Virus record (IMG/VR): IMGVR_UViG_3300021339_000001
Location: 1-62,677 of that record
Direction: 5' to 3' (one strand)
Source of the DNA: a virus
DNA: 62,677 nt
Positions 26,368 to 46,043 of the stretch are shown in pieces (position 1 is the stretch's first letter; every line of letters begins with the position of its first letter). The notes under the pieces are model-generated. The model did no database searches. It was given only the letters and a program-made list of their open reading frames with translations, and was not told where the DNA came from. Position numbers and translations under genes: made by a program.

Positions 26368-26594
26368 ATCGCTCGCTTCGGGATCGCGACGACGCGGTCT
26401 CGGTGGACGGCTAGCAGCCGTTCGCGTCCGTAGTAGCCACCCCACACCTCGAGCCACTCAGCGCCCGTCACGGTGTTCGTCGCGCTGCATCGAAACTCGT
26501 AGACGGCGCGACGAGATCGGACACGTCGCGCCCAGTCGGCGCGAACGACGATCACGGAATCTCCGTGCGTGATCGTCTGGCCGGCGGGCGTCAC
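26364..26594 (-). CDS. Hypothetical protein
   Basis: ORF track; GTG start. Confidence 0.5.
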   Translation of the reverse strand: MTPAGQTITHGDSVIVVRADWARRVRSRRAVYEFRCSATNTVTGAEWLEVWGGYYGRERLLAVHRDRVVAIPKRAI

Positions 26595-26649
26595 GTAGGT
26601 GCCAGATCGAACGATATGGTGTCCAACGCGTCCGTTCAGCCGAACGTCA

Positions 26650-26681
26650 AAGGACGCCGCTGTGGACTCAGCGGCGTCCTT
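26650..26681 (-). terminator. 13-bp hairpin 18 nt downstream of 26699..27295 (weak U-tract)
   Basis: Stem aaggacgccgctg / cagcggcgtcctt. Confidence 0.5.
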
Positions 26682-26698
26682 GGTGTCACGACGTTCGG

Positions 26699-27295
26699 CT
26701 AGCTGGGGTCCGACGCGTCCGGCGTCGGCGCGGGCACTGGCGTCGCCGCGATCAGTTCGCGAAGAGCGACGTTGTAGGCCTCGCGCTCTTCGTCGGTCGT
26801 TCGCTTGCCGCCACGTTCGATTCGATACACCTTCGACGTGGTACTGCCCATCGCGGTCGCCAGCGCGGCGCGTGAGATGTTGGCGTTGGTGCGCGTTCGC
26901 TCCAGGTCGCTCAGCTCGTCGGGCGCCTCGGTCGTGGCGTTCTGATTCCTTGCCATGGTTGATCCTTCCGGTTGATTTGGGTCAACGCTATCAGGACCCG
27001 GGATATTGTCGTTGTGAATCCAAACACGAGCCTGCTCGCCAGTTCGCTCGCTTGTGACGAACGTCGGTGTCCACTTGTAGCTCGTAACCGGTAGTGAAAG
27101 ACCAGCTTGGGTACACAATGTGACGGTGTCGTACGCGTGACCATTCAGTGGTCCACCCTGGAAGAAGTTCAGCATCGGGTATGCTCCTTGGAACCAGTCA
27201 TGCGTCGGACGGAGACAGACGCTACACACCCACCACTCATGTTCACTCGTACCAACGTTTCGGAAGCCTTGGCGTTGACTGCATGTGCAATACAT
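26699..27295 (-). CDS. Protein with Cys-rich N-terminal half and C-terminal XRE-type HTH
   Basis: HTH segment ISRAALATAMGSTTSKVYRIERG. Start MYCTCS follows the upstream stop by 2 nt (TGAtcATG). An internal RBS plus ATG (MARNQN) could also yield a short HTH-only product. Confidence 0.65.
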   Translation of the reverse strand: MYCTCSQRQGFRNVGTSEHEWWVCSVCLRPTHDWFQGAYPMLNFFQGGPLNGHAYDTVTLCTQAGLSLPVTSYKWTPTFVTSERTGEQARVWIHNDNIPGPDSVDPNQPEGSTMARNQNATTEAPDELSDLERTRTNANISRAALATAMGSTTSKVYRIERGGKRTTDEEREAYNVALRELIAATPVPAPTPDASDPS

Positions 27296-27297
27296 GA

Positions 27298-27507
27298 TCA
27301 CACCTTCAACTTCCGAAGATGCATCGCTGCCATCCATCGATCAAGTGTGTCCTTTCCGGTGCGATATGCCTTCTGATAGTCGTTCATGCACGACTTGCAC
27401 CAGGCCTGATATCCAGCGCCGCGTCGGTAAAACGATGCACGAGGTTTATCTTCGCAGCACAAGTTACACTTCTTGACGCTCGCGACGAGCGGAATTCCGT
27501 CCATCAC
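27298..27507 (-). CDS. Hypothetical Cys-rich protein
   Basis: CNLCC...CKSC pattern. Confidence 0.55.
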   Translation of the reverse strand: MMDGIPLVASVKKCNLCCEDKPRASFYRRGAGYQAWCKSCMNDYQKAYRTGKDTLDRWMAAMHLRKLKV

Positions 27508-27515
27508 ATCACTCC

Positions 27516-27737
27516 CTACAAGCTTCTGATGAGAATGCCCAGTCCGATCACGCCCAGCAGCATCACGACCAAACCTGCCGTGAGTCCGCCCATGTCGAAT
27601 GCGGTCTTGATCGTCTCCGGGTCGAATGGATTGATCGGCGGCCGTTGATCCGCGGGCACACGACTCTCGAGGACGATCATTCCGCCTCCGATCGTCGCGC
27701 TCAAGGTAAGCAGGAAAAATGCGAACTTGATCAGCAT
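27516..27737 (-). CDS. Membrane protein (two TM segments)
   Basis: Hydrophobic profile. Confidence 0.6.
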   Translation of the reverse strand: MLIKFAFFLLTLSATIGGGMIVLESRVPADQRPPINPFDPETIKTAFDMGGLTAGLVVMLLGVIGLGILIRSL

Positions 27738-27762
27738 CGCGGTCCTTTCGTCGGTTGTGACA

Positions 27763-27792
27763 AATCTAGCCGAGGAATTTGTCGATTGTCAA
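27763..27792 (-). promoter_or_regulatory. Early promoter P5 (TTGACA-N18-TAGATT)
   Basis: Plus strand reads aatcta-N18-tgtcaa. Confidence 0.6.
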
Positions 27793-27793
27793 A

Positions 27794-27946
27794 TCAAACT
27801 TGCACTGTGATAAGCTCGTCCAGTGCGTATGATCTGCGCCATCCGCCGGAGTAGATCACGTACCACGACTCGCGACCGTGCGTTTCCTTTTCGGAGTAAC
27901 TGACCGCACGCCAACGACCGTCGAGCCACGCGGTGTGACCGCGCAT
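27794..27946 (-). CDS. Hypothetical protein (50 aa)
   Basis: ORF 27794..28111 trimmed to MRGHTAW. The upstream part overlaps gene 27976..28200. Confidence 0.4.
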   Translation of the reverse strand: MRGHTAWLDGRWRAVSYSEKETHGRESWYVIYSGGWRRSYALDELITVQV

Positions 27947-27975
27947 CACCAGATGCGCGGCCAGCCGTCGCGTGC

Positions 27976-28200
27976 TCACTGGTTTGTCCGTCGGCAGTAG
28001 TGCGCGACGATCGCGGAGATCGCCTGCGTCTGCGTCACACCACGAGCGACGACGTACACACCCGGGTTGGCCGTCGCGTCGTAGTTGCCCTGCCACTGAC
28101 GGTCGTACCACCCGATGGTCTCCTCGTCACGAACGACGAACGTGCGATCGTTGCGGTCGGTGAACGTGTACTTGGGCTGCTCGAGCTTGACGTCGTCCAT
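27976..28200 (-). CDS. Hypothetical protein
   Basis: ORF track; closely follows 28205..28354. Confidence 0.6.
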   Translation of the reverse strand: MDDVKLEQPKYTFTDRNDRTFVVRDEETIGWYDRQWQGNYDATANPGVYVVARGVTQTQAISAIVAHYCRRTNQ

Positions 28201-28204
28201 GATG

Positions 28205-28354
28205 TCAGATCTCGCACTCGTGCTCGGTGTCGCAGTCGATCACGTTCTGCCCGAATTCGCCACCGACGAGCACGTCGACGGCGAGACCGTCGCGGTAGAT
28301 CACGTCACCGCCGCAGTTGCCGCACCGGGTGTGTTCCTGGGTGATGATGTCCAT
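28205..28354 (-). CDS. Zn-ribbon-like small protein (49 aa)
   Basis: Hand translation MDIITQEHTRCGNCGGDVIYRDG...CDTEHECEI; ggagg RBS. Confidence 0.5.
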   Translation of the reverse strand: MDIITQEHTRCGNCGGDVIYRDGLAVDVLVGGEFGQNVIDCDTEHECEI

Positions 28355-28394
28355 GATGTCCTCCGCGTCGCTTCGTCGTCGCCTAACGAGACGA

Positions 28395-28423
28395 ACGTTA
28401 GCCTAGCTGCACGATCGTGTCAA
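28395..28423 (-). promoter_or_regulatory. Early promoter P6 (TTGACA-N17-TAACGT)
   Basis: Identical 33-bp block to P1. Embedded in the 3' end of the methyltransferase gene. Confidence 0.75.
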
Positions 28424-29772
28424 ATCGTCGTCCAGTGGTGCGTGACGTCGACTACGGTCTCGCGCTCAGCGTCTCCGTACTTGCGCGCTAGCAGTCGATC
28501 GGTCAACGCCAGCGACACGCCAACGTCGCCGTCTGGCGTCCCGTTCAGCGCCCGCAACGCCGCACCGGCGATCCAACGTCCAGCCTGGACGGGTACGCCC
28601 TTGCCCCAGCCTGGTCCGAGATCAGGCGCACTACGAACAGGCCAGATCTTCCACGCATCGGGAAAGCCTTGGATCCTGGCAACCTCACGATGTGTCAACG
28701 TTCGCGGCAACGTCGGGTGAACGATCAAGTGCACACCACCGCCGGTGACCACACGCGCTGGACGATCCCAGTGCCAACGGATCGGCTGATTGCCGGGTCG
28801 TCCCATCCAGAAGTCATTCTCAATGAGGCGCTTCCACTTCGGAATGCGCTCCACCGTTCCGTCGTCGCGTATCACCTTGGTGTCGTAGTCCCAACCGCGG
28901 GGAAACGTACCGGTTCGTGCGTACAGATCGCGCATAACCGAGTTGATCGTCTCACCTTCTGCCCACGGCGCGACGTTGAACACGTCACGAATACGTTCGA
29001 GCGTCGGCGAGTAGTAGATGTCGTGTCCGTCGACCGAACCAGTACCATCATGCGCTTCGCGTCGTGCCCATCGCGAGCTGTTGACGACCTCCACATGAGT
29101 GCAGTCGCAGGCCCGTGGCGGGCTGATCCGCGTTGAGCAAGCACATCGTGTTCCGACGTAGGGTTGCTCCACCATCGTCATACTGGCCGGTAACAGATCC
29201 CGCAGTGCATCCCCAAGAACTGGGATGTAATCCAGTGTCGGCGGGCTGGCCCCAAACGGAATACGTGATGCTACGAAAAAGTAACGTTTCCGCATCGAAC
29301 AGCCGCCGACCGACAGGTTGTTGTGCAACACGTGATAGAGGTGGTAGTCCAGTCCAGTTTCTTTTTCGAGATGACTACGGAGCGCGCGCATCAACGGAAG
29401 ACCTTGCCGGAACGCCTGTTGCACCGACTCAAAGATCACGATCTCAGGTGACACCAGGCTGGCGTATCTGATCACCTCCCACATACACTCGTTGATCGCG
29501 GCGTCCTGACCGCGAAAGTGCTTGGGAGACAGTGTGCTGAAACCGGAGCAGGGCGGGTTGCCGAACACGAGTTGCACATCGTCGATCGCGTGCCACTGCG
29601 TCGGATCGACCGCGATGCTATCCCAATCATCGCCTAGGAGTCGACGATTGGCCAGGCAGTTGTACACGCCGAATCCGAGTGAACGTGAGAACTTGGCGAC
29701 GAGCTCGAACCCAGCTTGCACCGCACCGAGAGTGAACCCGCCGCCGAAGCCGTGAACGTCAACTGCTCTCAT
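28420..29772 (-). CDS. DNA (cytosine-5)-methyltransferase
   Basis: Motif I FGGGFTLG, motif IV GNPPCSGFS, FESVQ (ENV-like) and the late QGFP motif. Confidence 0.85.
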   Translation of the reverse strand: MRAVDVHGFGGGFTLGAVQAGFELVAKFSRSLGFGVYNCLANRRLLGDDWDSIAVDPTQWHAIDDVQLVFGNPPCSGFSTLSPKHFRGQDAAINECMWEVIRYASLVSPEIVIFESVQQAFRQGLPLMRALRSHLEKETGLDYHLYHVLHNNLSVGGCSMRKRYFFVASRIPFGASPPTLDYIPVLGDALRDLLPASMTMVEQPYVGTRCACSTRISPPRACDCTHVEVVNSSRWARREAHDGTGSVDGHDIYYSPTLERIRDVFNVAPWAEGETINSVMRDLYARTGTFPRGWDYDTKVIRDDGTVERIPKWKRLIENDFWMGRPGNQPIRWHWDRPARVVTGGGVHLIVHPTLPRTLTHREVARIQGFPDAWKIWPVRSAPDLGPGWGKGVPVQAGRWIAGAALRALNGTPDGDVGVSLALTDRLLARKYGDAERETVVDVTHHWTTI

Positions 29773-30199
29773 CGTACTCGTCTCGAACGTTTCGCCAACC
29801 CCACGCGCGTAGGATGGCGGCGATCGCGGGAGGACGCCAGCCGGTCGGTTTCACGACGTCATGCGGTGAACTGCGCTTGGAGTCCGATCCGTCGCTGGAT
29901 GCACGCTGCTTGGTCATGTTGGCACGGTGGACCTCATCCCAGAGATGTTGCCAAGGCAATCCCATCAGGTGCGCCGTACCCATCGCGACGTACACGATGT
30001 CGATCAACGCGTCGGCCATCTTGACGGGATCGTTCTCGTCGCAACCTTCGATGAATTCCTTGAGTTCTTCCCTAAGAAACTCAATTCGAAACTCGACTAC
30101 GTCGTCGGACAATTCACGTGATCGTGGTCCGGGATACGATGATTCGGGTAAACCAAACTTAGTGTGGAATCGACCAACGTCGTCGAAGTTACTTGACAT
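29759..30199 (-). CDS. MazG-like (all-alpha) nucleoside triphosphate pyrophosphohydrolase
   Basis: EFRIEFLREELKEFIEG plus DALIDIVYVAMG acidic-helix motifs. Confidence 0.7.
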   Translation of the reverse strand: MSSNFDDVGRFHTKFGLPESSYPGPRSRELSDDVVEFRIEFLREELKEFIEGCDENDPVKMADALIDIVYVAMGTAHLMGLPWQHLWDEVHRANMTKQRASSDGSDSKRSSPHDVVKPTGWRPPAIAAILRAWGWRNVRDEYDESS

Positions 30200-31190
30200 T
30201 TTGAGTCACCTGATCATAGACCCACGCATACGTCTTGGCGAGACCATCCGTCAAGTTGGTATTGACCGGTTCGTAACCGTACGTCTCGGCGAACAACGTG
30301 TTGTCACTGGATCGACCGCGCACGCCTTCAGGACCGTGAACATGTTTGATCGTGAGGTGCCTCATGTCGGCAATGTCCATGATCAACGCTGCGAGCTGAT
30401 TCACCGTGATCAACTCCGACGATCCGATGTTGACCGGTCCGGGATAGTACGCACTGGTCATGACGCTGAGCGTCGCGTCGACGCAGTCATCCACGTACAA
30501 GAACGTTCGCGTCTGCTCGCCATCGCCCCAGATGTCGATCTCGGTATGACCGTGAATTTTTGCCTCGGCCACCTTTCTGCACAAGGCAGCAGGTGCCTTC
30601 TCGCGACCGCCTTGCCATGATCCGAAGGGCCCGTAGACGTTGTGGTAACGCGCGGCGCGAGCGTCGAGCGCACCTTTTTGTCGATAGGCCTCACAAAGAC
30701 GCTCGGTGTACAACTTCTCCCACCCATATCCATCCTCAGGATCGGCCGGATACGCCTCGTCTTCACGGAGCGCTGGCCCGTTTTCTGAGATCTGACGGTA
30801 AGACGGATATACGCACGCGCTGGATGAGAAGAAGAATCGCTCGACGTCGGCGAACTTTGCTGCCTCTAATGCGGTAACACTGAGTCGAACGTTTCGTAGG
30901 CAATCCAGGTCGTGGTCGGCGATAAACCCCATACCACCCATATCTGCGGCGAGGTCGAACACCATGTCCGTACCGTGCATCATGGACGCCAGGGTTCGTG
31001 ATGCGAACGCCGCACTGATGTCATACAGTGGCACGTTATGCGCGCTTGGTACCGTGTACCACCAGTCGGATTGACTCTTGACGTCGATCGCGATGACCTC
31101 ATCAAAGATACGAGCGAGTCGTTTTGTCAGGTGTCCGCCAATGAATCCGCCCGCACCGAGTACCATAGCTTTTGAGAAAACCTTGATCAC
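30189..31190 (-). CDS. NAD-dependent sugar-nucleotide epimerase, GDP-mannose 3,5-epimerase-like
   Basis: GAGGFIGGHL Rossmann motif. LAADMGGMGFI, SSACVYP, YGWEKL (YxxxK), GREKAPAALCRK and GPEGVRGRSSDN closely match the plant GME signature blocks as recalled from memory. Confidence 0.75.
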   Translation of the reverse strand: MIKVFSKAMVLGAGGFIGGHLTKRLARIFDEVIAIDVKSQSDWWYTVPSAHNVPLYDISAAFASRTLASMMHGTDMVFDLAADMGGMGFIADHDLDCLRNVRLSVTALEAAKFADVERFFFSSSACVYPSYRQISENGPALREDEAYPADPEDGYGWEKLYTERLCEAYRQKGALDARAARYHNVYGPFGSWQGGREKAPAALCRKVAEAKIHGHTEIDIWGDGEQTRTFLYVDDCVDATLSVMTSAYYPGPVNIGSSELITVNQLAALIMDIADMRHLTIKHVHGPEGVRGRSSDNTLFAETYGYEPVNTNLTDGLAKTYAWVYDQVTQNVK

Positions 31191-32215
31191 GTGATCATCA
31201 CCTCAAACCACCTCGGGAAGAATGCCGCCGTTACCTCAGGAATGAAATTGACGTGATCGAACAGTGCGCGAATTGTCTCGTAGTACAGGGAGTCGACGTC
31301 GCGTCGATCACTATGCTCGATATCGCGGAGGGCGCTCAAGAACCGACCGGTATGACGGTAGCCGTGCAGCTCGGCTTCGACGTCGTTCCAAGGATCGTGG
31401 TCGTTACGCTTTTGGTGCACCATGGCACCACCAAATTGGACGTACTGGTTCTCCATCTGAGCCAACACATGTTCGGCGACGTAGCCCGCCCAGATGTCGT
31501 CGTACCGTCCAATACCAGGCCAGACTCCCATCAGGATCGCGAGGTCGCCGCGATAGGCCGTCGACTGGCTGTTCAGTGGCGCGAAGATGTGCGGATCGAT
31601 GATCGCCTGACGCGCGTTGCAGACGTGTCGATCACCGCCGGTAACACGGGTGATCGCGTCGACATCGGGATCACCTGTCCACAGGGCTGCGACGACGGCG
31701 ATATCCGACGGCGTCGGAACGTCGAAATCGCGTGTTCCAAACGTGGAGTCGTACTGATCGTATGGCAATCCACGGGCACGTACCGCGGGAGCGCAGAGCA
31801 TGCCGGGGTTGAACAGTCCGCCTCCTCCGCCGATGGGATAGGTCACAGGAAATTGGTGCGGGCCCGACATCGCGTTCTTCACGTGTGTGAAGAAGTCAGC
31901 AGCGGGGACGTTGTCGTCGTCCACGGTGACAATGATACCGGGCCGTAACTCGTGGGCCGCTGCGATCGCGAGATTTCGACGTTGGATCGAGCGCCAACCG
32001 ATCGCCTCGCTGAGCTTGGGCCATCGGTCGTGTTGTTCCTCGGCGGTCAGAAAATCACCACCGAGAGCTTCGACGTACTCCTTAAGCTCGGGATTGGATT
32101 CCTGATCGGCGGCGACGATCAGGTGACCGTGTTGTGCCCACTCCGCGTACGCGGTTGGACGCTTGTTGATGGACGTACTGACGATTATCACATCTGGCCG
32201 TACGTTCTCATCCAC
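31187..32215 (-). CDS. RGP / GT75-like protein (UDP-arabinopyranose-mutase / reversibly glycosylated polypeptide family)
   Basis: DVIIVST...HLIVAADQESNP, IIVTVDDDNVP (DxD) and IGRYDDIWAGYV, compared with plant RGP DIVIPT, YHLIIVQDGDP, TIDDDCF and IGRYDDMWAGW. Confidence 0.65.
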   Translation of the reverse strand: MDENVRPDVIIVSTSINKRPTAYAEWAQHGHLIVAADQESNPELKEYVEALGGDFLTAEEQHDRWPKLSEAIGWRSIQRRNLAIAAAHELRPGIIVTVDDDNVPAADFFTHVKNAMSGPHQFPVTYPIGGGGGLFNPGMLCAPAVRARGLPYDQYDSTFGTRDFDVPTPSDIAVVAALWTGDPDVDAITRVTGGDRHVCNARQAIIDPHIFAPLNSQSTAYRGDLAILMGVWPGIGRYDDIWAGYVAEHVLAQMENQYVQFGGAMVHQKRNDHDPWNDVEAELHGYRHTGRFLSALRDIEHSDRRDVDSLYYETIRALFDHVNFIPEVTAAFFPRWFEVMIT

Positions 32216-33527
32216 TGCGGCCGATCCTTTCGTCGATCATGCGCAGGTGGCGCGCCTCAGCGACGGCCATGTCGTAGTGTGCGCGTTGCGCGCGAACGAG
32301 CCAGAGCCACGTGTCACGGTTCTGACTCAGGTAGTCGACGCGTGACCTGAGATCATCCGGCGACGTGACCCGCAGCCAGTCGCGTAGCTCGCTTGGCGCG
32401 TCGCCAAGAATGTGGTTCTGCGTGTCGTACAGCGGGTGAAAGAAGCAAACGGTTCCGACCGCAAACGCCTGCCAAGGCTTGGTGGTTGCCCATCCTGAGC
32501 CACTGCTCGGCGTGGTGAGCGTCGTCTTGACTGATCTGAGCTTGTCGTAGTACTCGTTCCACGGCGCCGACGTGATCGTCCGACCGATCGCGAGCTGCGA
32601 GCTGTCCGACCATCGACCGTGAATGAATGCGGGATCAAGTGGTAGGACGTATTCGGTCAGTGCTTGAAGACGCGAGACCGACGTCTTCTTGATGATGGTC
32701 CCAGCTTCGTTGATGAAGAGACCAAACGCGTCACGATCTTCCCAGTTCTCGAAGAACCACGGGTGAATGTGTTGAGGCATGATTCCACAGATCTCGAGAC
32801 GCGAGTACACGTACTTCTGTTCGTAGTACCACGTCTCAGTGTTCCACGTCGCAACGTCGCCGAAACCTCGATCTGCGGGATCACTGGGGTCCCCGTAACG
32901 CTCGCAGCGTTGACGTTTGGTCAAGTCGTACTGACCAAGGATCGGGTGACGTAACGGCCACTTCAGATCCCGTGTCTTGATCGTGTTGCGTGGATCTGTG
33001 ATCAACCAGATCTCTTCCCGGTTGATCGGGTCGGTCATCCTGAACCGATTGATACCTCGGATCACGTGCGCACCATACTTGACGCAGTTCACATACGGCT
33101 TGCTGTACGCGTCACGAGCGCGAACCTGCGGAATCGGATAGTGGCTCGTGCAGTGTTGACCGATCCACACGATCATGGCGTCCAGATCGGTGTAATGTGG
33201 CATCACGTGTTCGTCGAAGATCTCGACTGTTCGCACGAGCGCCTCATGCGTATAAGTCTCAGGACGAGCGCTGTAGAACTCCTTCTTGTACTTTGTCAGA
33301 GTAGGTGCGATCTGCGTCCACGGATTCTCGACGTTTGGTGGCAACCCCACCTCGCTGGGAACCTCGCCCTTGCTTGATCCGACGAGTACGAACGTGTCGT
33401 CAGGTCGACGTGTCGCGAGGTCGATAAGTGTGTTGGTCGGTTCGTCGTCGCCACCTGTCATAGCCCAGGTGCCATCGGTGAACCGGAACGCGCGACCAAG
33501 TCGCGCGTACCCGATCCTCTTTCCCAT
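32208..33527 (-). CDS. GT-B glycosyltransferase resembling phage T4 DNA beta-glucosyltransferase
   Basis: Remote, by-eye colinear matches to T4 BGT. KRIGYARLG matches KIAIINMG, and EIWLITDPRNT matches IYYLFTDIRLP. ATTKPWQAFAVGTVCFF matches ITLRVWETMASDAVMLI, and the C-terminal helix also aligns. Confidence 0.5.
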   Translation of the reverse strand: MGKRIGYARLGRAFRFTDGTWAMTGGDDEPTNTLIDLATRRPDDTFVLVGSSKGEVPSEVGLPPNVENPWTQIAPTLTKYKKEFYSARPETYTHEALVRTVEIFDEHVMPHYTDLDAMIVWIGQHCTSHYPIPQVRARDAYSKPYVNCVKYGAHVIRGINRFRMTDPINREEIWLITDPRNTIKTRDLKWPLRHPILGQYDLTKRQRCERYGDPSDPADRGFGDVATWNTETWYYEQKYVYSRLEICGIMPQHIHPWFFENWEDRDAFGLFINEAGTIIKKTSVSRLQALTEYVLPLDPAFIHGRWSDSSQLAIGRTITSAPWNEYYDKLRSVKTTLTTPSSGSGWATTKPWQAFAVGTVCFFHPLYDTQNHILGDAPSELRDWLRVTSPDDLRSRVDYLSQNRDTWLWLVRAQRAHYDMAVAEARHLRMIDERIGRSG

Positions 33528-33539
33528 GTGTTTCCTGAC

Positions 33540-34472
33540 TCAGAATGGAACAGGCGGTGGCGGCGGGATGTTCGCCAGCGGTGGCGTTGCTGGTGCGGCA
33601 GGCTGCTCAGGTGCCGCGTAGACCGGCGCAGCGGCGGGAGCCTGAGCGGGAGCTGGAGCCTCAGGCTGCGGAGTTGGCTGGACGTACGCGGGTTGCGCCG
33701 GTGCGGGCGGAGGCGGTGGAACTGGCGGCGCAGCGGGTGGTGCTGGCGGCTGCGGCTGCGGCGCCGGTGCTGGCTGTTGCGGCGCTGGTGCGGGCGGCGG
33801 AGGCGGTGGCGTTGGCATGGCCGCCGGTGTCGGCACGTTGTACTGCGGCGCCGGTGCTGGCTGTTGCGGCGCTGGTGCGGGCGGCGGAGGCGGTGGCGTT
33901 GGCATGGCCGCCGGTGTCGGCACGTTGTACTGCGCCTGAACGTGGGCAGCCGCAGCGTCGCCAACCTGCGCGACCGGTGGCGCTGGCGGCGCTGGTGGCG
34001 GAGGCGGTGCGACGGGCGGCGGACCCGTCGGCGGCGCGATCGGAGGCGGTGACATTCCTGGTACGCCTGGGACGGTGTTCGACTGAATTGCGGTCACATT
34101 CTCGCGATTCTCACCGGCCCACACACGGTGATCCACCGTCACACTGACGCGACGACCGAACATGAGTCCCGCGACCGACGCAGGATCCGGGCCAGCTTTG
34201 AAGTACTCCTCGGTGAAACCGAGTGCCTTCATGTTCTTGAAGAACATGCGCAGCGCGTTTGGGTTTTCCGCGCTGATCACGAACTGAGTGTAAACGTGTC
34301 GGCCCATGTGCGGACCCTCGTCCACAGACAGCTTGATCTTGTACATGGGCTTACCCGTACCCGACGTCGTGTACTCGGCCGATGCGACCGTCATGTTGTA
34401 CACGCCCTTGGGGATCGGCGTGAGAGTGCCGCCTGCGGCGTTCAGCAGATCGGCGAAACTGAAGTTGGTCAC
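33540..34472 (-). CDS. DUF669-like phage ssDNA-binding protein with long Pro/Ala-rich tail ending VPF
   Basis: ORF trimmed to GTG34472 (GTGA overlap with the Sak4-like gene). N-terminal TNFSFADLLN...GVYNMTVASAEYTTSGTGKPMYKIKLSV. Confidence 0.65.
   Translation of the reverse strand: MTNFSFADLLNAAGGTLTPIPKGVYNMTVASAEYTTSGTGKPMYKIKLSVDEGPHMGRHVYTQFVISAENPNALRMFFKNMKALGFTEEYFKAGPDPASVAGLMFGRRVSVTVDHRVWAGENRENVTAIQSNTVPGVPGMSPPPIAPPTGPPPVAPPPPPAPPAPPVAQVGDAAAAHVQAQYNVPTPAAMPTPPPPPPAPAPQQPAPAPQYNVPTPAAMPTPPPPPPAPAPQQPAPAPQPQPPAPPAAPPVPPPPPAPAQPAYVQPTPQPEAPAPAQAPAAAPVYAAPEQPAAPATPPLANIPPPPPVPF
33760..33933. repeat. Perfect 87-bp tandem duplication (2 copies) inside the Pro-rich tail
   Basis: 33760..33846 equals 33847..33933. 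It encodes 29 aa twice (YNVPTPAAMPTPPPPPPAPAPQQPAPAPQ). Confidence 0.9.
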
Positions 34473-35233
34473 GCGATTCCTTCCGTTGGTGGTGCGGGAA
34501 GAGGACCGAACACGTCGTCGAGCATCTGTGTCACGGTCGGATGATAGATCATGGCAGGCAGCCGACCTTGAACTCGTTCTCCTGCCTCGTATTGCTGACT
34601 CGGAACGACTGCCATCTGTCGGACCGCATAGTGCGGTTGTGTTGGATCTTCCTGCGCGTAACTCACGACGTGAAGATAACCGATCACGTCCATAAAGTAA
34701 GGCATCTTCACCGAGAGTTGACCTTGAACGTAGGGTCGCCACTTACCGTCGCGCATCTGCGTCATGGCGGTGATCACCACCGCTTCGAGTGGTTTCGTCG
34801 GGTGTTCGGTCAGGTCACGGAACCGACGGCAGGTGCGCTCCATGTGTGTGAGAAGATCACCCCACAATCGTTGATCCATTCGACCGTCTGCGCTGAGATC
34901 ATCCTTGCATCGAGTCTGCACCTCGGTGATCGAGTCGATCGACACCGAACGGAACGGATGATAGCCCGAATCGAGCCACTCCATAACACGTGTCAACGTG
35001 CTGTACTCGCGGATCAAGACCACGCACGTTTCCCACGTGCCGTTATACTCCGGCGGCGAGTCGCGCATCGGATCCCAGAACACCTTGGTGCCAGGTAAGA
35101 ATCGATACGCCATCTCGGCGTCGATCAACAGACGTGGCGCAGGAGTCGAGTTCGCGAACGTCGACTTTCCTGCCTTGGAGTCGGCGTGAACGAGCACCGA
35201 GATAGCACGGCCACGAATGACCGGATGTGTCAC
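34469..35233 (-). CDS. RecA-like AAA ATPase (Sak4-type recombination protein)
   Basis: Walker A HADSKAGKST. Size and pairing with a DUF669 gene fit. Confidence 0.7.
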   Translation of the reverse strand: MTHPVIRGRAISVLVHADSKAGKSTFANSTPAPRLLIDAEMAYRFLPGTKVFWDPMRDSPPEYNGTWETCVVLIREYSTLTRVMEWLDSGYHPFRSVSIDSITEVQTRCKDDLSADGRMDQRLWGDLLTHMERTCRRFRDLTEHPTKPLEAVVITAMTQMRDGKWRPYVQGQLSVKMPYFMDVIGYLHVVSYAQEDPTQPHYAVRQMAVVPSQQYEAGERVQGRLPAMIYHPTVTQMLDDVFGPLPAPPTEGIA

Positions 35234-35427
35234 GTCTTATTCGCCTCCACCTCAGCGTCGTACAGGTCGCAGCACTCGTCGCACGCGACACCATCTTCGA
35301 CGTACCCGGCTTCGTCGCCGTCGAGAACGGAATCGCCGCAGACGGTACACGTGCCGTTGAACGCCGCCACAAACCGATTTGACAACGTCTGGTGTGTCGG
35401 AGTCGTCTCATCGACCGGCTCGGCCAT
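35230..35427 (-). CDS. Zn-ribbon-like hypothetical protein
   Basis: ORF trimmed to ATG35427 (gggag RBS). CTVCGD...CDEC pattern. Confidence 0.5.
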   Translation of the reverse strand: MAEPVDETTPTHQTLSNRFVAAFNGTCTVCGDSVLDGDEAGYVEDGVACDECCDLYDAEVEANKT

Positions 35428-35428
35428 C

Positions 35429-36400
35429 TTAGCTCCCAACGTAGTTTCTGTTCACGGTATCATCGTCTTGATACCGAGCCTGCGGATCAACGTGCACATA
35501 GTATTCGTTAAGCAGCCCCTGCGAGTTCGATCCATCATCCATCATAGGACAGACCGGCAGGAAGTCGCATGACCACGTGCAATCACGCGATGGTCGAGGA
35601 GGACAGACGTAGTGGTGATCACCACCTGCGTCGAGTTCGTTACGCGTCTGAACGATCTCGGCGATCACACGATGAACGCGTTGCCACATCGATCGCAACT
35701 CGTGTGAATTGTGTCCGACCTCAAGTTGCATGTAGAACGGCGGGTTGGCCTTCGCCGTTCGACGAACCTTACGGAGCATAGTGTAGAGACCACCAGTCGT
35801 GCGCCACGCGGGTCCTCCGCCGGTCTGACCTAACGAGTCCAAGTACTCGAGCAGGTGATAGAACTTCATCTGTTCGTCGAGTGGCAGCATGGTCGGCGGC
35901 GTGGACAGATCGCCGACGGTCTTGAAGTCACGGAAGAGACGCGCGCCGTCGCGTTCACGTTCCCAGCGTTGATCCAGTCGACCTCTGAGTGTCACGTTGG
36001 GTACACCGGACGGTACCTCCAACGTCGTTTCAGCGGCGACCAGATGCAGCCCTTCGTCGATGCCTTCGTCGGATCGCCACGCCATGTAACCTTCGAGCAT
36101 GGCGGACGCCAGTTCTGACTCAGCTCGAATCTTCCGAACCAACTCGGCGTCGTGCGTGTGCTCGGTCTCTGTCTCGCGGTACAACTCACGCACCACCGTG
36201 ACGGGATTGGCACCTTCGACGTACAGGGCGTGGAGTGCGACGTGCACACGTGTTCCGAGTTGTCGCGCGCCGATCGGTGATTCCTTTTGACGATTGAGAC
36301 CAAGTTCGCGGTAGTACGCCAGATACCACTTCCGACGACAGGACTTGAACGTCTGAATCTCAGAGTTGGTGACGGTCAGGGGAAGCAGCGTCTTAGTCAT
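35429..36400 (-). CDS. Cas4/RecB-family PD-(D/E)XK exonuclease
   Basis: N-terminal FKSCRRKWYLAYY and a C-terminal Cys cluster CPPRPSRDCTWSCDFLPVC. Confidence 0.7.
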   Translation of the reverse strand: MTKTLLPLTVTNSEIQTFKSCRRKWYLAYYRELGLNRQKESPIGARQLGTRVHVALHALYVEGANPVTVVRELYRETETEHTHDAELVRKIRAESELASAMLEGYMAWRSDEGIDEGLHLVAAETTLEVPSGVPNVTLRGRLDQRWERERDGARLFRDFKTVGDLSTPPTMLPLDEQMKFYHLLEYLDSLGQTGGGPAWRTTGGLYTMLRKVRRTAKANPPFYMQLEVGHNSHELRSMWQRVHRVIAEIVQTRNELDAGGDHHYVCPPRPSRDCTWSCDFLPVCPMMDDGSNSQGLLNEYYVHVDPQARYQDDDTVNRNYVGS

Positions 36401-38283: not shown

Positions 38284-38332
38284 GTGTGTTTGTCCCTTCG
38301 ACGCGTCGTGTTAGCGATCGTATATCGATGGA

Positions 38333-38806: not shown

Positions 38807-38821
38807 GCGTCTGTCCTTTCG

Positions 38822-40660: not shown

Positions 40661-40713
40661 AAGCCTGCGGCGATCAACATCATGAACATAACCACGAGTC
40701 CAATGCCGATCAC
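40624..40713 (-). CDS. Possible 29-aa membrane peptide overlapping the polymerase start
   Basis: Hand translation VIGIGLVVMFMMLIAAGFWTIFLWIIDAW. Speculative. Confidence 0.25.
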   Translation of the reverse strand: MIGIGLVVMFMMLIAAGFWTIFLWIIDAW

Positions 40714-40730
40714 CTTACCGATCGCGTCAG

Positions 40731-41315: not shown

Positions 41316-41464
41316 CCGAGTAACTCGTCGTTCATGATCTCGTCCACCAACTCCTGTTGCTCCGCTTTGGTTAAATACTTAGGCCAGATACATGGGTTCT
41401 GACAACTGTGCGGATACGTCACGCACTCTTTATGACACCCACATTCATCGCGTTTATCTTTCAC
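41312..41464 (-). CDS. Cys-rich small protein (50 aa)
   Basis: Hand translation VKDKRDECGCHKECVTYPHSCQNPCIWPKY.... GTGA overlap with the hydroxymethylase-like stop and ATGA overlap with the deaminase start. Confidence 0.5.
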   Translation of the reverse strand: MKDKRDECGCHKECVTYPHSCQNPCIWPKYLTKAEQQELVDEIMNDELLG

Positions 41465-42327
41465 GGATTAACCCACTCGCTGAGAAGTCCGTCGAAGTCG
41501 GGGACGACGACTTTCATAAGCTTTGGATTGTACGTAAGCTCGTGCGCACGATTCATGATCATGGTCCACCGCATACGCGGTGGAGTAGTTAACTGTCTAC
41601 GTATATCCGCACCAAGTCCGTTATTTGGCACGATCGGATAGTCGATTCGCGTCACGAAATCAGAGTTGACTCGCATAGCTGCTTCGACATCCTTGTCGTA
41701 CAGATGCAACGAGTCGACGACGTGCGTGTACTCACCCTGTTCGACGTTGAGCGCGTTTGCCATGCTGGCGTGCAACGTGGTGAACTGAAACGAGTCATAC
41801 GGCCAACCCATGTGTAGGTCGTTGCTCCGCATATGTGTCGTCATGTGGAGATGATAACGACGAAGATGCCACGACAGGTACACCGTGCACGGGTAGTCGT
41901 TTGCGTCGTCGTGAAACAGGTCCCACGACGGATCCCAGATCGTCGCGACGGCACGTCGTGTCTGGGGCGATTCGTCGAGACGAGTGATCACACGTGGGAT
42001 CTGCGCGCGAAGTCGTGGACCATACGCACCGTGGAACGTGCCGCCGTCCATGTAGGGACGTGTTGCTGGCGACAACGACTGCATTCGCGTCGGATCACTG
42101 AAGCCGCCTACGAGTTGAAGTGCCTCGATCGCGGCAAGCTTGACGTTCAACGACCGGCCTACGCCGACCATAAGCGAGTGCTGTGGATCGCTCAAGATGG
42201 TAGTGACGTTGCGCAGTTCGTACGTGCTCATACCGCGAGGCGAAACCTTCTCACCCTGCGTCAGAAGAAGCGACCGAAGTTTCTCGTACGCGTCGGCGGC
42301 TGTCGTCGCTTCGACCAGGTGTGCCAT
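41461..42327 (-). CDS. ThyA-fold deoxynucleotide C5-modifying enzyme with dCMP-hydroxymethylase signature
   Basis: ORF trimmed to MAHLVEA (gagagga RBS). Motifs SPRG, QTRRAVATIWDP, catalytic YPCT, and MRSNDLHMGWPYD with Asp at the ThyA-Asn177 / T4 gp42-Asp179 position. Confidence 0.7.
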   Translation of the reverse strand: MAHLVEATTAADAYEKLRSLLLTQGEKVSPRGMSTYELRNVTTILSDPQHSLMVGVGRSLNVKLAAIEALQLVGGFSDPTRMQSLSPATRPYMDGGTFHGAYGPRLRAQIPRVITRLDESPQTRRAVATIWDPSWDLFHDDANDYPCTVYLSWHLRRYHLHMTTHMRSNDLHMGWPYDSFQFTTLHASMANALNVEQGEYTHVVDSLHLYDKDVEAAMRVNSDFVTRIDYPIVPNNGLGADIRRQLTTPPRMRWTMIMNRAHELTYNPKLMKVVVPDFDGLLSEWVNP

Positions 42328-44556: not shown

Positions 44557-44577
44557 GTTGTGCGTCCTTTCGTCAGT

Positions 44578-46029: not shown

Positions 46030-46043
46030 CTCGATCAACTGAC

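What the first reader, a model, noticed from the sequence alone, without database searches (positions are those of the whole stretch)
30189..33527. Three-gene sugar cassette: GDP-mannose-3,5-epimerase-like SDR, RGP/GT75-like protein and T4-BGT-like glycosyltransferase
These are three consecutive, overlapping genes inside the replication/nucleotide module.

- The first matches the distinctive blocks of plant GDP-D-mannose 3,5-epimerase (LAADMGGMGFI, SSAC.YP, YG.EKL, GREKAPAA.CRK, GPEGVRGR.SDN). That enzyme makes GDP-L-galactose and GDP-L-gulose.
- The second matches reversibly glycosylated polypeptide / UDP-arabinopyranose mutase (DDD box and the near-identical IGRYDD(I/M)WAG block). That family is essentially known from plants.
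- The third aligns colinearly by eye with T4 DNA beta-glucosyltransferase.

The combination suggests that a hydroxymethylated base in phage DNA is decorated with an L-series or furanose sugar, possibly a disaccharide. I do not know of any described DNA hypermodification with this enzyme set.
Basis: partly seen in the sequence, partly recalled or inferred. Interest (0 to 1): 0.92.

Follow-up and report, generated by a model that had tools for sequence, protein, structure and literature searches.

The report
Phage DNA sugar-decoration gene cassette
An uncultured actinobacterial-type phage carries three linked genes that most likely make an unusual sugar donor (GDP-L-galactofuranose) and attach it to hydroxymethylcytosine in its own DNA, which would be a new sugar variant of the T4-style strategy for escaping host nucleases.

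Summary
Three overlapping minus-strand genes lie at 30189-33527.

- **ORF1** is a GDP-mannose 3,5-epimerase (E=6e-85 to plant GME; all four catalytic residues kept).
- **ORF2** is a GT75 NDP-pyranose mutase. It matches MtdL, the GDP-L-galactose mutase, at E=1e-24 (family profile 1e-57).
- **ORF3** is a GT-B glycosyltransferase. Its six best PDB fold matches are all T4 DNA beta-glucosyltransferase, and a family profile aligns to the BGT donor domain (87%, E=3.7e-6).

- a thymidylate-synthase homologue with the dCMP-hydroxymethylase signature;
- a thymidylate-kinase-like kinase;
- a dCMP deaminase;
- a MazG-type NTP pyrophosphatase.

Across 80 related viral contigs the GT keeps the same position in the replication module. 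All 41 neighbouring TS homologues carry the hydroxymethyl-dCMP signature. The slot after the GT holds interchangeable NDP-sugar cassettes.

Best reading: 5-hmC in phage DNA is glycosylated from a GDP-L-hexofuranose donor. The acceptor and the sugar are inferred, not shown. Two MtdL functional residues differ in ORF2, and nothing supports a disaccharide. This is a new variant of a known kind.

The parts
32208..33527 (-). ORF3: GT-B glycosyltransferase resembling T4 DNA beta-glucosyltransferase. It is the predicted DNA (5-hmC) glycosyltransferase.
   Evidence: The AF2 model has pLDDT 89.7 and pTM 0.90. In the Foldseek PDB search, ranks 1-6 are all T4 BGT (E 5e-10 to 5e-9, TMt 0.60-0.68), and the next GT-B is at 5.6e-7. 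In BFVD the top hits include one annotated 'DNA beta-glucosyltransferase' at 3e-20. hhalign of family profile A3 against T4 BGT gives 87.4% probability and E=3.7e-6 over ORF3 285-422 vs BGT 194-335. In that alignment BGT R195 pairs with invariant R286 and R269 with invariant K350. The only Pfam hit is weak (Glyco_trans_1_2, E=0.0037).
31187..32215 (-). ORF2: GT75-family enzyme, a predicted GDP-L-hexopyranose to furanose mutase (MtdL/Hyg20/RGP family).
   Evidence: phmmer against MtdL (7XPR/7YUA) gives E=1e-24. Family profile A5 gives E=1.1e-57 against MtdL residues 7-339 and 4e-9 against plant UDP-arabinopyranose mutase 8CID. Conserved: DDD, R159, D195, S228, Q229, R257, D260, R289 and H292, plus the GDP-type T13, I15 and S86. 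MtdL D87 is Ile and H287 is Gln (residue roles from PMC9937993).
30189..31190 (-). ORF1: GDP-mannose 3,5-epimerase (extended SDR). It would make GDP-L-galactose and/or GDP-L-gulose from GDP-mannose.
   Evidence: phmmer gives E=5.9e-85 and 4.8e-84 to GME structures 8SG0 and 2C59, against 1e-21 for the next SDR class. AtGME C145, Y174, K178 and K217 correspond to C126, Y155, K159 and K198, all conserved. Pfam Epimerase E=2e-41. PHROG nucleotide-sugar epimerase E=2e-65.
29759..30199 (-). MazG/PRA-PH-type all-alpha NTP pyrophosphatase. It is a candidate dCTPase/dUTPase that biases the dNTP pool.
   Evidence: Pfam PRA-PH E=4e-16. PHROG nucleotide pyrophosphohydrolase E=3e-29. The best PDB match is DR2231, a MazG-like NTP pyrophosphohydrolase. 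In relatives the same slot holds a dUTPase_2-family gene, the Pfam family that T4 gp56 dCTPase also hits. Its specificity was not tested.
28420..29772 (-). C5-cytosine DNA methyltransferase. It is conserved immediately downstream of the cassette, and its role in the system is unexplained.
   Evidence: Pfam DNA_methylase E=2e-19. It is present downstream of the GT in nearly all related loci.
41461..42327 (-). Thymidylate-synthase homologue with the dCMP 5-hydroxymethylase signature, the predicted 5-hm-dCMP synthase. The ORF is open to 42462, but the likely start is the ATG at 42327.
   Evidence: The best PDB match is MilA, a CMP 5-hydroxymethylase (E=5e-20). Alignment A2 with E. coli ThyA, T4 gp42 and SPO1 gp29 shows C146 kept, L143->D, D169 kept and N177->D, the same as T4 gp42. 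SPO1 dUMP hydroxymethylase keeps N177. The diagnostic positions come from PMC13326640.
42251..43207 (-). Thymidylate-kinase-like dNMP kinase fused to a conserved C-terminal domain of unknown function. It is the candidate hm-dCMP kinase.
   Evidence: PHROG thymidylate kinase E=1e-17. Pfam Thymidylate_kin E=3e-6. The AF2 model has pLDDT 92.9. Foldseek matches YorR and thymidylate kinases over the N-terminal ~180-210 columns only. It is a homologue of the 'thymidylate kinase' of phage DSL-LC01.
40731..41315 (-). dCMP deaminase, which supplies dUMP for dTMP synthesis as T4 cd does.
   Evidence: Pfam dCMP_cyt_deam_1 E=1e-18. It is syntenic with the TS homologue in related loci.

Best explanation
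The cassette is the sugar arm of a T4-like, pre-replicative cytosine hypermodification pathway.

Proposed steps:
1. The TS homologue (41461-42327) converts dCMP to 5-hydroxymethyl-dCMP.
2. The TMK-like kinase (42251-43207) and host NDP kinase raise it to the triphosphate.
3. The MazG-type pyrophosphatase (29759-30199) and the dCMP deaminase (40731-41315) shape the dNTP pool.
4. The phage PolA incorporates hm-dC into DNA.
5. [quoted passage not shown]
6. ORF2 (GT75) contracts the pyranose ring to give GDP-L-galactofuranose, as MtdL does in antibiotic A201A biosynthesis.
7. ORF3, a BGT-like GT-B enzyme, transfers that sugar to the hydroxymethyl group of 5-hmC in duplex phage DNA. This would shield the DNA from host nucleases.

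What is shown: the family assignments of ORF1-3, of the TS homologue and of the kinase; the active-site signatures; the conserved synteny; the co-occurrence.

What is inferred: that DNA 5-hmC is the acceptor, that GDP-L-Galf is the donor, the stereochemistry of the linkage, and the anti-restriction role.
For: 1. ORF1 is a bona fide GME. It scores E=6e-85 with all catalytic residues conserved.

2. ORF2 belongs to GT75 and is closest to the GDP-L-galactose mutase MtdL (E=1e-24; family profile 1e-57). It has the GDP-type selectivity residues T13 and S86 and 9 of 11 functional residues (PMC9937993).

3. ORF3's best structural relatives are T4 BGT, which takes ranks 1-6 in the PDB search. The profile also shows homology of the donor domain.

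4. The TS homologue has the dCMP-hydroxymethylase signature (L143D, D169, N177D), identical to T4 gp42 and unlike both the dUMP hydroxymethylase of SPO1 and the D169N 5-hydroxy-dCMP synthases.

5. In 80 IMG/VR loci the GT always sits in the order Sak4, DUF669, GT, variable slot, dUTPase_2, C5-MTase, with the kinase, TS homologue, dCMP deaminase and PolA upstream. All 41 TS homologues recovered next to GT relatives carry the D/D/D signature. That includes four lineages whose GT is only 24-30% identical and whose backbone differs.

6. The slot after the GT holds alternative NDP-sugar modules:
- GT75 mutase with GME;
- GT75 mutase with a 4-epimerase-like SDR;
- a UDP-type GT75 mutase alone;
- an APH-type kinase with a nucleotidyltransferase, sometimes with HAD or SIS genes;
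- an NDP-sugar dehydrogenase.
Cultured phage DSL-LC01 has a GT plus an FAD-type UDP-galactopyranose mutase at the same place. That is a non-orthologous replacement, and it argues that ORF2 acts as a furanose-forming mutase.

7. GDP-type mutases co-occur with an SDR. UDP-type mutases, which have Pro at T13 as in plant RGPs, never do.

8. No ORF3 relative was found in 185,579 bacterial and archaeal species genomes, so the family looks virus-specific.

9. Precedents exist. GT plus partner-epimerase clusters install sugars on 5hmC (10.1101/2023.12.21.572611), and a phage NDP-sugar mutase has been proposed in the DNA glycosylation cluster of RL38JI (PMC13326640).
Against: - There is no chemical evidence. 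The contig is a metagenome assembly, so no virion DNA is at hand.
- ORF3's N-terminal, acceptor-side domain shows no significant sequence similarity to BGT. The 'LITD178PR' vs BGT 'LFTD100IR' resemblance is not significant.
- ORF3 is near-neutral (pI 6.9), whereas BGT has pI 9.05.
- In ORF2 and its whole phage clade, MtdL D87 is Ile/Val or Thr (Ile in the window). D87N and D87S abolish MtdL activity. The Mn2+ ligand H287 is Gln. The substrate or the chemistry may therefore differ.
- An apparently intact C5-cytosine methyltransferase is conserved next to the cassette. That is odd if cytosine were fully replaced.
- No proven dCTPase is present.
- In cyanophages, GME and GT75 homologues sit in sugar islands that have been read as cell-envelope genes.
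- GT sequence tracks cassette type only slightly more than backbone genes do: identity difference 0.10 against 0.06-0.075.
Confidence: 0.65

Rival explanations
1. The acceptor is not DNA. The cassette makes GDP-L-galactofuranose, or a related donor, and the GT decorates a virion protein or a host envelope polymer. That would make it an auxiliary or superinfection-exclusion function, like the mycobacteriophage capsid glycosylation genes or the cyanophage sugar islands.
For: GME-like SDRs occur in 37 cultured cyanophages. In S-T4 the GT75 homologue and a GME-like SDR sit about 5.4 kb apart within a heptose and GT island next to hli genes, and such islands have been interpreted as cell-wall genes (PMC9602691). 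ORF3 is not basic. Its acceptor domain has no sequence match to BGT. A neighbouring C5-MTase implies that unmodified cytosines exist.
Against: The GT is embedded in the replication and recombination operon, far from the structural genes at 1-22 kb. Its best fold matches are DNA beta-glucosyltransferases rather than protein or lipid GTs. The family co-occurs with dCMP-hydroxymethylase-type TS homologues in 41 of 41 cases, including unrelated backbones. It is absent from cellular genomes.
Confidence: 0.15
2. DNA 5-hmC is glycosylated, but the sugar chemistry is not L-galactofuranose. ORF2 may not be a pyranose-furanose mutase. With D87I and H287Q it could act on a different GDP-sugar such as GDP-L-gulose, be a second GT-A-type transferase that adds a further sugar, or be regulatory. 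The donor for ORF3 would then be GDP-L-galactopyranose, GDP-L-gulose or another sugar.
For: MtdL D87 is Ile and H287 is Gln in the window protein, and H287 is Gln across the whole phage clade. D87N and D87S abolish MtdL activity, and H287 is a Mn2+ ligand (PMC9937993). GT75 proteins have a GT-A fold and plant members self-glycosylate. GME makes two products. ORF2 itself does not reach any Pfam RGP match at E<=0.01.
Against: The DDD motif, the catalytic Arg159, D195, S228, Q229, R257, D260, R289 and H292 are all conserved family-wide. A related phage has an FAD-type UDP-galactopyranose mutase in the same slot. The UDP-type GT75 variants occur alone with the GT, as expected for mutases acting on host UDP-sugars. 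GME followed by a GT75 mutase is the A201A route to GDP-L-Galf (MtdL from PMC9937993; the GME step is from my own knowledge of Zhu et al. 2017, which I could not read here).
Confidence: 0.15
3. The modified base is 5-hydroxymethyluracil rather than 5-hydroxymethylcytosine. This would be SPO1-like dUMP hydroxymethylation fed by the adjacent dCMP deaminase, with the sugar on hmU as in base J.
For: The TS homologue's tblastn neighbours include SPO1 gp29 (dUMP hydroxymethylase, 31% identity), and a dCMP deaminase is adjacent.
Against: The base-reading residue equivalent to ThyA N177 is Asp in the window enzyme and in all 41 relatives, as in T4 gp42 and MilA. SPO1 gp29 keeps Asn. T4 also encodes a dCMP deaminase alongside its dCMP hydroxymethylase (my own knowledge).
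Confidence: 0.03

Closest known systems
Phage T4 hydroxymethylcytosine glucosylation system (gp42 dCMP hydroxymethylase, gp1 dNMP kinase, gp56 dCTPase, cd dCMP deaminase, beta-glucosyltransferase)
   Same: The logic and the parts list match. There is a TS homologue with the same L143D, D169, N177D signature, a dNMP-kinase-like gene, a dCMP deaminase and an all-alpha NTP pyrophosphatase. The relatives carry the same Pfam dUTPase_2 family as gp56. The GT's nearest solved structures are T4 BGT. In T4, b-gt lies next to gene 42.
   Different: The donor is predicted to be a phage-made GDP-L-hexofuranose, not host UDP-glucose. ORF3 is about 90 residues longer than BGT, only about 11% identical to it, and near-neutral in charge. 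The kinase is TMK-like with an extra domain, not gp1-like. A C5-MTase is part of the module. The host range is actinobacterial-type, not enterobacterial.
[quoted passage not shown]
   Same: ORF2 is homologous over nearly its full length (family profile E=1e-57) and keeps the DDD motif, Arg159 and most sugar and phosphate ligands, plus the GDP-type T13 and S86 (PMC9937993). Pairing it with a GME gives the A201A-type route from GDP-Man to GDP-L-Gal to GDP-L-Galf.
   Different: D87 is Ile and H287 is Gln. The ORF2 family hits retrieved are nearly all unnamed metagenomic sequences, and those I could place lie on viral contigs. The product would go to DNA rather than to a nucleoside antibiotic. ORF2 itself falls below Pfam RGP thresholds.
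Phage 5hmC glyco-hypermodification gene clusters with a GT plus a partner sugar epimerase ('subclass II', Pyle et al., bioRxiv 10.1101/2023.12.21.572611)
   Same: An adjacent GT and SDR epimerase whose product the GT needs, sugar diversity across related contigs, and association of GT-B-like enzymes with thymidylate-synthase homologues.
   Different: The clusters tested there make 5hmC post-replicatively through C5-MT and TET. That paper does not mention GDP-sugars, mutases or furanoses. Here no TET-like gene was found in the window.
Rhizobium phage RL38JI / Pootjesviridae and Actinomycetia phage DSL-LC01 (GT plus FAD-type UDP-galactopyranose mutase)
   Same: A phage-encoded pyranose-to-furanose mutase sits next to DNA-type GTs and a TS homologue (PMC13326640). 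DSL-LC01 shares the window's module order and has a GT and UGM in the same slot.
   Different: The mutase there is the unrelated flavoenzyme acting on UDP-D-galactose. RL38JI uses 5-hydroxycytosine made by a D169N synthase, whereas the window enzyme keeps D169.
Cyanomyovirus sugar islands carrying GME-like and GT75-like genes (e.g. Synechococcus phage S-T4, S-SCSM1)
   Same: These are the only cultured phages with homologues of ORF1 (38-42% identity) and ORF2 (about 32%). S-T4 has both within about 6 kb.
   Different: In those phages the genes lie among heptose, GT and photosynthesis-related genes and are interpreted as cell-envelope functions (PMC9602691). No BGT-like ORF3 relative was found in any cyanophage record. 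I did not check those genomes for a dCMP hydroxymethylase.

Membership tests
GDP-mannose 3,5-epimerase (EC 5.1.3.18, extended SDR) | Full-length similarity to characterised GMEs, well separated from other NDP-sugar SDRs | tested here: met
   E=5.9e-85 and 4.8e-84 to 8SG0 and 2C59 over residues 7-330. The next class, GDP-fucose synthase, scores 1e-21.
GDP-mannose 3,5-epimerase (EC 5.1.3.18, extended SDR) | Catalytic Tyr174/Lys178 (SDR) plus the epimerisation acid/base pair Cys145/Lys217 (A. thaliana numbering; roles from my own knowledge, consistent with the mutant entries 2C54, 2C5A and 2C5E returned as separate sequences) | tested here: met
   C126, Y155, K159 and K198 align to C145, Y174, K178 and K217.
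GDP-mannose 3,5-epimerase (EC 5.1.3.18, extended SDR) | [quoted passage not shown] | not testable with these tools
   This needs an enzyme assay.
GT75 NDP-pyranose mutase (MtdL/Hyg20/plant RGP-UAM) | Sequence homology to characterised members | tested here: met
   ORF2 against MtdL gives E=1e-24. Family profile A5 gives 1.1e-57 against MtdL and 4e-9 against plant UAM 8CID. ORF2 alone gives no Pfam RGP hit at E<=0.01, but many homologues carry PF03214.
GT75 NDP-pyranose mutase (MtdL/Hyg20/plant RGP-UAM) | DXD (DDD) motif and the catalytic or autoglycosylated Arg159 | tested here: met
   DDD at 99-101 and Arg148 are invariant in the family.
GT75 NDP-pyranose mutase (MtdL/Hyg20/plant RGP-UAM) | Sugar and phosphate ligands D195, S228, Q229, R257, D260, R289 and H292 | tested here: met
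   All are conserved in ORF2, and nearly all across 33 phage homologues.
GT75 NDP-pyranose mutase (MtdL/Hyg20/plant RGP-UAM) | Asp87, which is essential in MtdL (D87N and D87S are inactive) | tested here: not met
   The position is Ile in ORF2 and Ile or Val in all GDP-type phage homologues.
GT75 NDP-pyranose mutase (MtdL/Hyg20/plant RGP-UAM) | Mn2+-coordinating His287 | tested here: not met
   The position aligns to Gln268, which is at least 90% conserved. ORF2 has a His one residue earlier, but that His is not conserved in the family.
GT75 NDP-pyranose mutase (MtdL/Hyg20/plant RGP-UAM) | GDP rather than UDP selectivity residues (Thr13 and Ser86 in MtdL; Pro and Asp in plant RGPs) | tested here: met
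   Invariant T14 aligns to T13, I16 to I15 and S to S86. N42 is Glu (PMC9937993).
T4 DNA beta-glucosyltransferase family (GT-B) | GT-B two-Rossmann fold with BGT as nearest structural neighbour | tested here: met
   Foldseek PDB ranks 1-6 are T4 BGT entries. BFVD includes a hit annotated 'DNA beta-glucosyltransferase' at 3e-20.
T4 DNA beta-glucosyltransferase family (GT-B) | Sequence-profile homology to BGT over both domains | tested here: inconclusive
   The C-terminal donor domain aligns at 87.4% probability, E=3.7e-6, with BGT R195 and R269 aligned to invariant R286 and K350. The N-terminal acceptor domain is not aligned. The narrower profile A1 gave only 18%.
T4 DNA beta-glucosyltransferase family (GT-B) | A catalytic residue equivalent to Asp100 | tested here: inconclusive
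   Invariant D178 in 'LITDPR' resembles BGT 'LFTD100IR' after a beta-strand. The local match is not better than shuffled sequence: 305 of 500 shuffles reach the observed score. No structural superposition was available.
T4 DNA beta-glucosyltransferase family (GT-B) | Transfers sugar to 5-hmC in duplex DNA | not testable with these tools
   There is contextual support only.
Pre-replicative 5-hydroxymethyl-dC pathway (T4 type) | TS homologue with catalytic Cys, L143D/E (hydroxymethyl), N177D (cytosine) and D169 retained (not a 5-hydroxy-dCMP synthase) | tested here: met
   Alignment A2. The same signature occurs in 41 of 41 neighbours of ORF3 relatives. The criteria come from PMC13326640.
Pre-replicative 5-hydroxymethyl-dC pathway (T4 type) | A dNMP kinase able to phosphorylate hm-dCMP | tested here: inconclusive
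   A TMK-like kinase is present and syntenic. Its substrate specificity is unknown.
Pre-replicative 5-hydroxymethyl-dC pathway (T4 type) | A dCTPase that excludes dC from DNA | tested here: inconclusive
   A MazG/PRA-PH-type NTP pyrophosphatase is present. T4 gp56 and the relatives' slot gene share Pfam dUTPase_2. There is no BLAST similarity to gp56, and specificity is unknown.

The most novel reading that the evidence does not exclude
This phage group carries L-galactofuranosyl-5-hydroxymethylcytosine in its DNA. That would be the first DNA hypermodification built from a GDP-activated sugar, the first with an L-hexose or hexofuranose made by a GT75 mutase, and the first DNA glycosyltransferase shown to use a GDP donor. 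The position after the GT would then be a hypervariable 'glyco-cassette' that diversifies the DNA sugar between related phages, much as O-antigen loci diversify cell surfaces, presumably under pressure from modification-dependent nucleases.
Probability: 0.4. Interest if true: 0.78.

Novelty: new variant of a known kind. Interest (0 to 1): 0.62.

Why it matters
Sugar-decorated cytosines are a main way phages escape restriction enzymes and CRISPR nucleases, and they are a source of tools for epigenetic sequencing. The known examples are built from UDP-activated D-sugars such as glucose, arabinose and galactose.

A GDP-L-galactofuranose route would extend the chemistry of natural DNA to L-series furanoses. 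It would also reveal a DNA glycosyltransferase with new donor specificity.

The finding would point to a large, uncultured clade of actinobacterial-type phages in which the DNA sugar is swapped by cassette exchange. The GT family has about 400 representative clusters in the deep search. That would make a natural system for studying the arms race with modification-dependent nucleases.

It also gives a concrete gene set (TS homologue, kinase and ORF1-3) that can be reconstituted in a heterologous host.

Tried and rejected
- **Megablast of 28400-36400 against 50,697 phage records:** no match. The phage has no close cultured relative.
- **Family libraries for ORF2 and ORF3:** Pfam, NCBIfam and PHROGs gave nothing for ORF2 and only a sub-threshold Glyco_trans_1_2 hit for ORF3. 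A PDB sequence search for ORF3 gave nothing.
- **hhalign of the narrow ORF3 profile A1 against T4 BGT:** only 18% probability. It became informative only after adding distant family members.
- **The 'LITDPR' vs BGT 'LFTD100IR' resemblance:** not significant by shuffle test, so rejected as evidence.
- **Co-evolution test of the GT with cassette type:** the GT does cluster by cassette, but backbone genes do so almost as much. This mostly reflects shared descent, and I do not use it as strong evidence.
- **The 5-hydroxycytosine alternative:** considered and rejected because D169 is retained.
- **The hydroxymethyluracil alternative:** considered and rejected because N177 is Asp.
- **TET/JBP-type post-replicative route:** no such gene turned up in the Pfam and PHROG scans of the larger ORFs. 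Not every small ORF was scanned.
- **Promoter and terminator scan of 26500-45500:** not above chance.
- **T4 gp56 against the MazG-like protein by BLAST:** no similarity.
- **C-terminal domain of the kinase:** no PDB sequence hit, and not picked up by Foldseek.
- **Scan of 185,579 species genomes for ORF3 relatives:** none found. The broader profile could not be used for this scan.
- **The A201A pathway paper (PMC5441726):** not held. The GME step of that pathway rests on my own knowledge.

Full report
**Observation.**
The window behaves as a complete phage-sized contig of 62,677 bp. The exact ORF2 protein is on record from a JGI contig of that same length. Structural genes lie on the plus strand up to about 22 kb, and a long minus-strand block runs from about 22.5 to 46 kb.

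They overlap by 8 and 4 nt. ORF1 overlaps a MazG-like gene by 11 nt, and that gene overlaps a C5-cytosine methyltransferase by 14 nt. This points to one translationally coupled unit. A promoter and terminator scan found nothing above chance inside it.

**ORF1.**
ORF1 matches solved plant GDP-mannose 3,5-epimerases at E=6e-85 and 5e-84 over essentially its whole length. The next-best SDR class, GDP-fucose synthase, scores 1e-21. The residues that align to A. thaliana Cys145, Tyr174, Lys178 and Lys217 are C126, Y155, K159 and K198, all conserved. Membership in the GME family is as secure as sequence can make it.

**ORF2.**
No Pfam, NCBIfam or PHROG model reports ORF2. It does match the chains of 7XPR, 7YUA and 8HL8 at E=1e-24. 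The paper behind those entries identifies them as MtdL, the GT75 GDP-L-galactopyranose to GDP-L-galactofuranose mutase of antibiotic A201A biosynthesis. It also lists the functional residues (PMC9937993).

A profile of 30 ORF2 relatives matches MtdL at E=1.1e-57 over residues 7-339, and matches a plant UDP-arabinopyranose mutase at 4e-9.

Conserved in ORF2:
- the DDD motif, Arg159, Asp195, Ser228, Gln229, Arg257, Asp260, Arg289 and His292;
- the positions the paper links to guanine rather than uracil selectivity (Thr13, Ile15, Ser86).

Two functional residues are not conserved. Asp87 is Ile, and the Mn2+ ligand His287 is Gln. The His287-to-Gln change holds across the whole phage clade, and Asp87 is Ile or Val in all the GDP-type members. 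ORF2 is therefore a GT75 member with a remodelled active site. Mutase activity is likely but not guaranteed.

**ORF3.**
The only sequence-library hit is a sub-threshold Glyco_trans_1_2 match. There are 675 homologues, nearly all from unnamed metagenomic contigs and the best at 53% identity.

An AlphaFold2 model built on 45 of them is confident (pLDDT 89.7, pTM 0.90). Against the PDB, ranks 1 to 6 are all T4 DNA beta-glucosyltransferase (E 5e-10 to 5e-9), ahead of generic GT-B enzymes from 5.6e-7. Against viral models, the best hits include a protein annotated as DNA beta-glucosyltransferase (3e-20).

A full HMMER scan of 1.84 billion representatives finds a bounded family: 407 representatives at E<=1e-3 and 113 at E<=1e-30. 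A profile that includes its distant members aligns to the whole donor-binding domain of T4 BGT at 87% probability (E=3.7e-6). In that alignment BGT Arg195 and Arg269 pair with the family-invariant R286 and K350.

The acceptor-side domain is not aligned by sequence. An apparent match around BGT Asp100 is not significant.

**What else is in the window.**
The same minus-strand block encodes the following:
- A thymidylate-synthase homologue at 41461-42327. Its best solved relative is MilA, a CMP 5-hydroxymethylase.
- A thymidylate-kinase-like protein at 42251-43207.
- A dCMP deaminase, and PolA.

A recent paper gives diagnostic positions for this enzyme family. In ThyA numbering, L143D/E indicates hydroxymethylation, N177D indicates a cytosine substrate, and D169N indicates 5-hydroxy-dCMP synthases (PMC13326640).

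I aligned the window enzyme with E. coli ThyA, T4 gp42 and SPO1 gp29. It has L143D and N177D and keeps D169, exactly like T4 dCMP hydroxymethylase. The SPO1 dUMP hydroxymethylase keeps Asn177. The predicted product is therefore 5-hydroxymethyl-dCMP, not 5-hm-dUMP and not 5-hydroxy-dCMP.

The MazG/PRA-PH-type pyrophosphatase next to ORF1 is closest to DR2231, a MazG-like NTP pyrophosphohydrolase. In relatives the same slot holds a dUTPase_2-family gene, the Pfam family that T4 dCTPase gp56 also hits. Its specificity is unknown.

**Comparative evidence.**
Two NCBI and JGI contigs encoding ORF3 relatives show the same gene order. I then fetched 80 IMG/VR loci.

The GT almost always sits in the order Sak4, DUF669, GT, variable slot, dUTPase_2, C5-MTase. 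Where the flank reaches far enough, the kinase, TS homologue, dCMP deaminase and PolA lie upstream.

Every one of the 41 TS homologues recovered next to a GT relative has the L143D, D169, N177D signature. That includes four loci whose GT is only 24-30% identical and whose other genes differ.

The slot after the GT is variable:
- GT75 mutase plus a GME-like SDR (the window's type, about 15% of loci);
- GT75 mutase plus a 4-epimerase-like SDR;
- GT75 mutase alone;
- an APH-type kinase plus a nucleotidyltransferase, sometimes with HAD or SIS genes;
- an extra UDP-glucose/GDP-mannose dehydrogenase in one locus;
- nothing.

The GT75 proteins fall into two types. The GDP-like type has Thr at MtdL position 13 and is often accompanied by an SDR. 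The UDP-like type has Pro there, as in plant RGPs, and never has an SDR partner.

The cultured freshwater Actinomycetia phage DSL-LC01 has the same module order. In the same slot it carries a GT followed by an FAD-type UDP-galactopyranose mutase and a MazG-like gene. An unrelated furanose-forming mutase at the same position is the best available argument that ORF2 works as a mutase.

No ORF3 relative was found in 185,579 bacterial and archaeal species genomes.

**Mechanism proposed.**
Pre-replicative branch:
1. dCMP is converted to 5-hm-dCMP by the TS homologue.
2. It is raised to the diphosphate and triphosphate by the TMK-like kinase and host NDK.
3. It is incorporated by PolA.
4. The deaminase and the NTP pyrophosphatase adjust the dNTP pools.

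Sugar branch:
1. Host GDP-mannose, which is abundant in actinobacteria (my own knowledge), is converted to GDP-L-galactose or GDP-L-gulose by ORF1.
2. ORF2 converts that to GDP-L-galactofuranose.
3. ORF3 transfers the sugar to the hydroxymethyl oxygen of 5-hmC in DNA.

The family assignments, signatures and synteny are shown. The acceptor, the donor and the biological role are inferred. I give the DNA-glycosylation reading about 0.65, and the specific L-galactofuranose chemistry about 0.4.

**Points against, and rivals.**
- There is no chemistry. The contig comes from a metagenome.
- ORF3 is near-neutral (pI 6.9, against 9.05 for BGT), and its acceptor domain has no sequence tie to BGT.
- ORF2 lacks Asp87 and His287.
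- An apparently intact C5-cytosine methyltransferase is conserved beside the cassette. That is hard to reconcile with full replacement of cytosine, and I could not explain it.
- Among cultured phages, GME-like genes occur only in cyanomyoviruses. In S-T4 the GT75 homologue sits in a heptose and GT island next to hli genes. Such genes have been read as cell-envelope functions (PMC9602691). A non-DNA acceptor therefore remains a live rival (0.15).
- A variant in which DNA is glycosylated but ORF2 does something other than ring contraction also gets 0.15.
- A hydroxymethyluracil acceptor is disfavoured by the Asp at position 177 (0.03).
- GT sequences cluster by cassette type, but backbone genes do so almost as strongly. 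I do not count this as evidence of donor co-evolution.

**Comparison with what is known, and novelty.**
The general design is established. T4 is the classic case. GT plus partner-epimerase clusters write diverse sugars on 5hmC (10.1101/2023.12.21.572611). Arabinofuranosyl and galactosyl/glucosyl 5-hydroxycytosines, with a phage UDP-galactopyranose mutase proposed for RL38JI, were described in 2026 (PMC13326640).

Neither paper mentions GDP-sugars, GME or GT75. Full-text searches for GT75 or GME together with phage DNA modification returned nothing relevant.

The finding is therefore a new variant of a known kind. The strategy is familiar. The new elements are the donor pathway, the probable sugar class, and a large uncultured clade with a swappable sugar slot. 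The category is not new and nothing chemical is shown, but the prediction is specific, well supported by context, and directly testable.

Noticed in passing
window 42251-43207 (-), especially the C-terminal half at about 42251-42670: The thymidylate-kinase-like gene upstream of the TS homologue is fused to a well-folded, conserved C-terminal alpha/beta domain of about 115 residues. Invariant residues include G182, G192, F204, P206, N231, G254, P274, Q275 and R279. This domain has no PDB sequence hit and was not matched by Foldseek. The fusion is conserved in 381 homologues and in phage DSL-LC01. The last ~20 residues are disordered and overlap the start of the TS-homologue gene.
   Followed up: partly
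window 28420-29772 (-): An apparently intact C5-cytosine DNA methyltransferase is translationally coupled to the cassette and conserved at that position in nearly all related loci. A similar GT, C5-MTase, MazG micro-synteny occurs in Pseudoalteromonas phage vB_Psh_XG4. If cytosine were fully replaced by glycosyl-hmC, this enzyme would have no substrate in phage DNA.
   Followed up: partly
loci L008-L087 (IMG/VR), the slot between the ORF3 homologue and the dUTPase_2 gene: The position after the GT is a hypervariable NDP-sugar cassette with at least five architectures: GT75 plus GME; GT75 plus a 4-epimerase-like SDR; UDP-type GT75 alone; APH kinase plus nucleotidyltransferase with or without HAD or SIS genes; and none. 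One locus adds an NDP-sugar dehydrogenase.
   Followed up: yes
window 33695-33934, inside the DUF669 gene 33540-34742 (-): An 87-bp tandem repeat (2.8 copies, 86% matches) encodes a duplicated proline-rich segment in the C-terminal tail of the DUF669 SSB-like protein.
   Followed up: no
window 45122-46045 (-): A 307-aa protein (phrog_5931, unknown function) at the head of the minus-strand block contains a 'DGQHR' motif. By eye this is reminiscent of ParB/DndB-like DNA-modification-associated proteins. It was not tested.
   Followed up: no
L005/L006 (Actinomycetia phage DSL-LC01, OQ999401.1, about 84.4-97 kb): This cultured freshwater actinophage has the same module: kinase, D-type TS homologue, dCMP deaminase, PolA and so on, then a GT, an FAD-type UDP-galactopyranose mutase and a MazG-like gene. 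It is an isolate in which glycosylated (galactofuranosyl?) hmC could be tested directly.
   Followed up: partly
window 41461-42462 (-): The TS-homologue ORF is open for 45 codons upstream of the first residue that aligns with homologues. The likely start is the ATG at 42327, which overlaps the kinase gene's 3' end by about 77 nt.
   Followed up: partly
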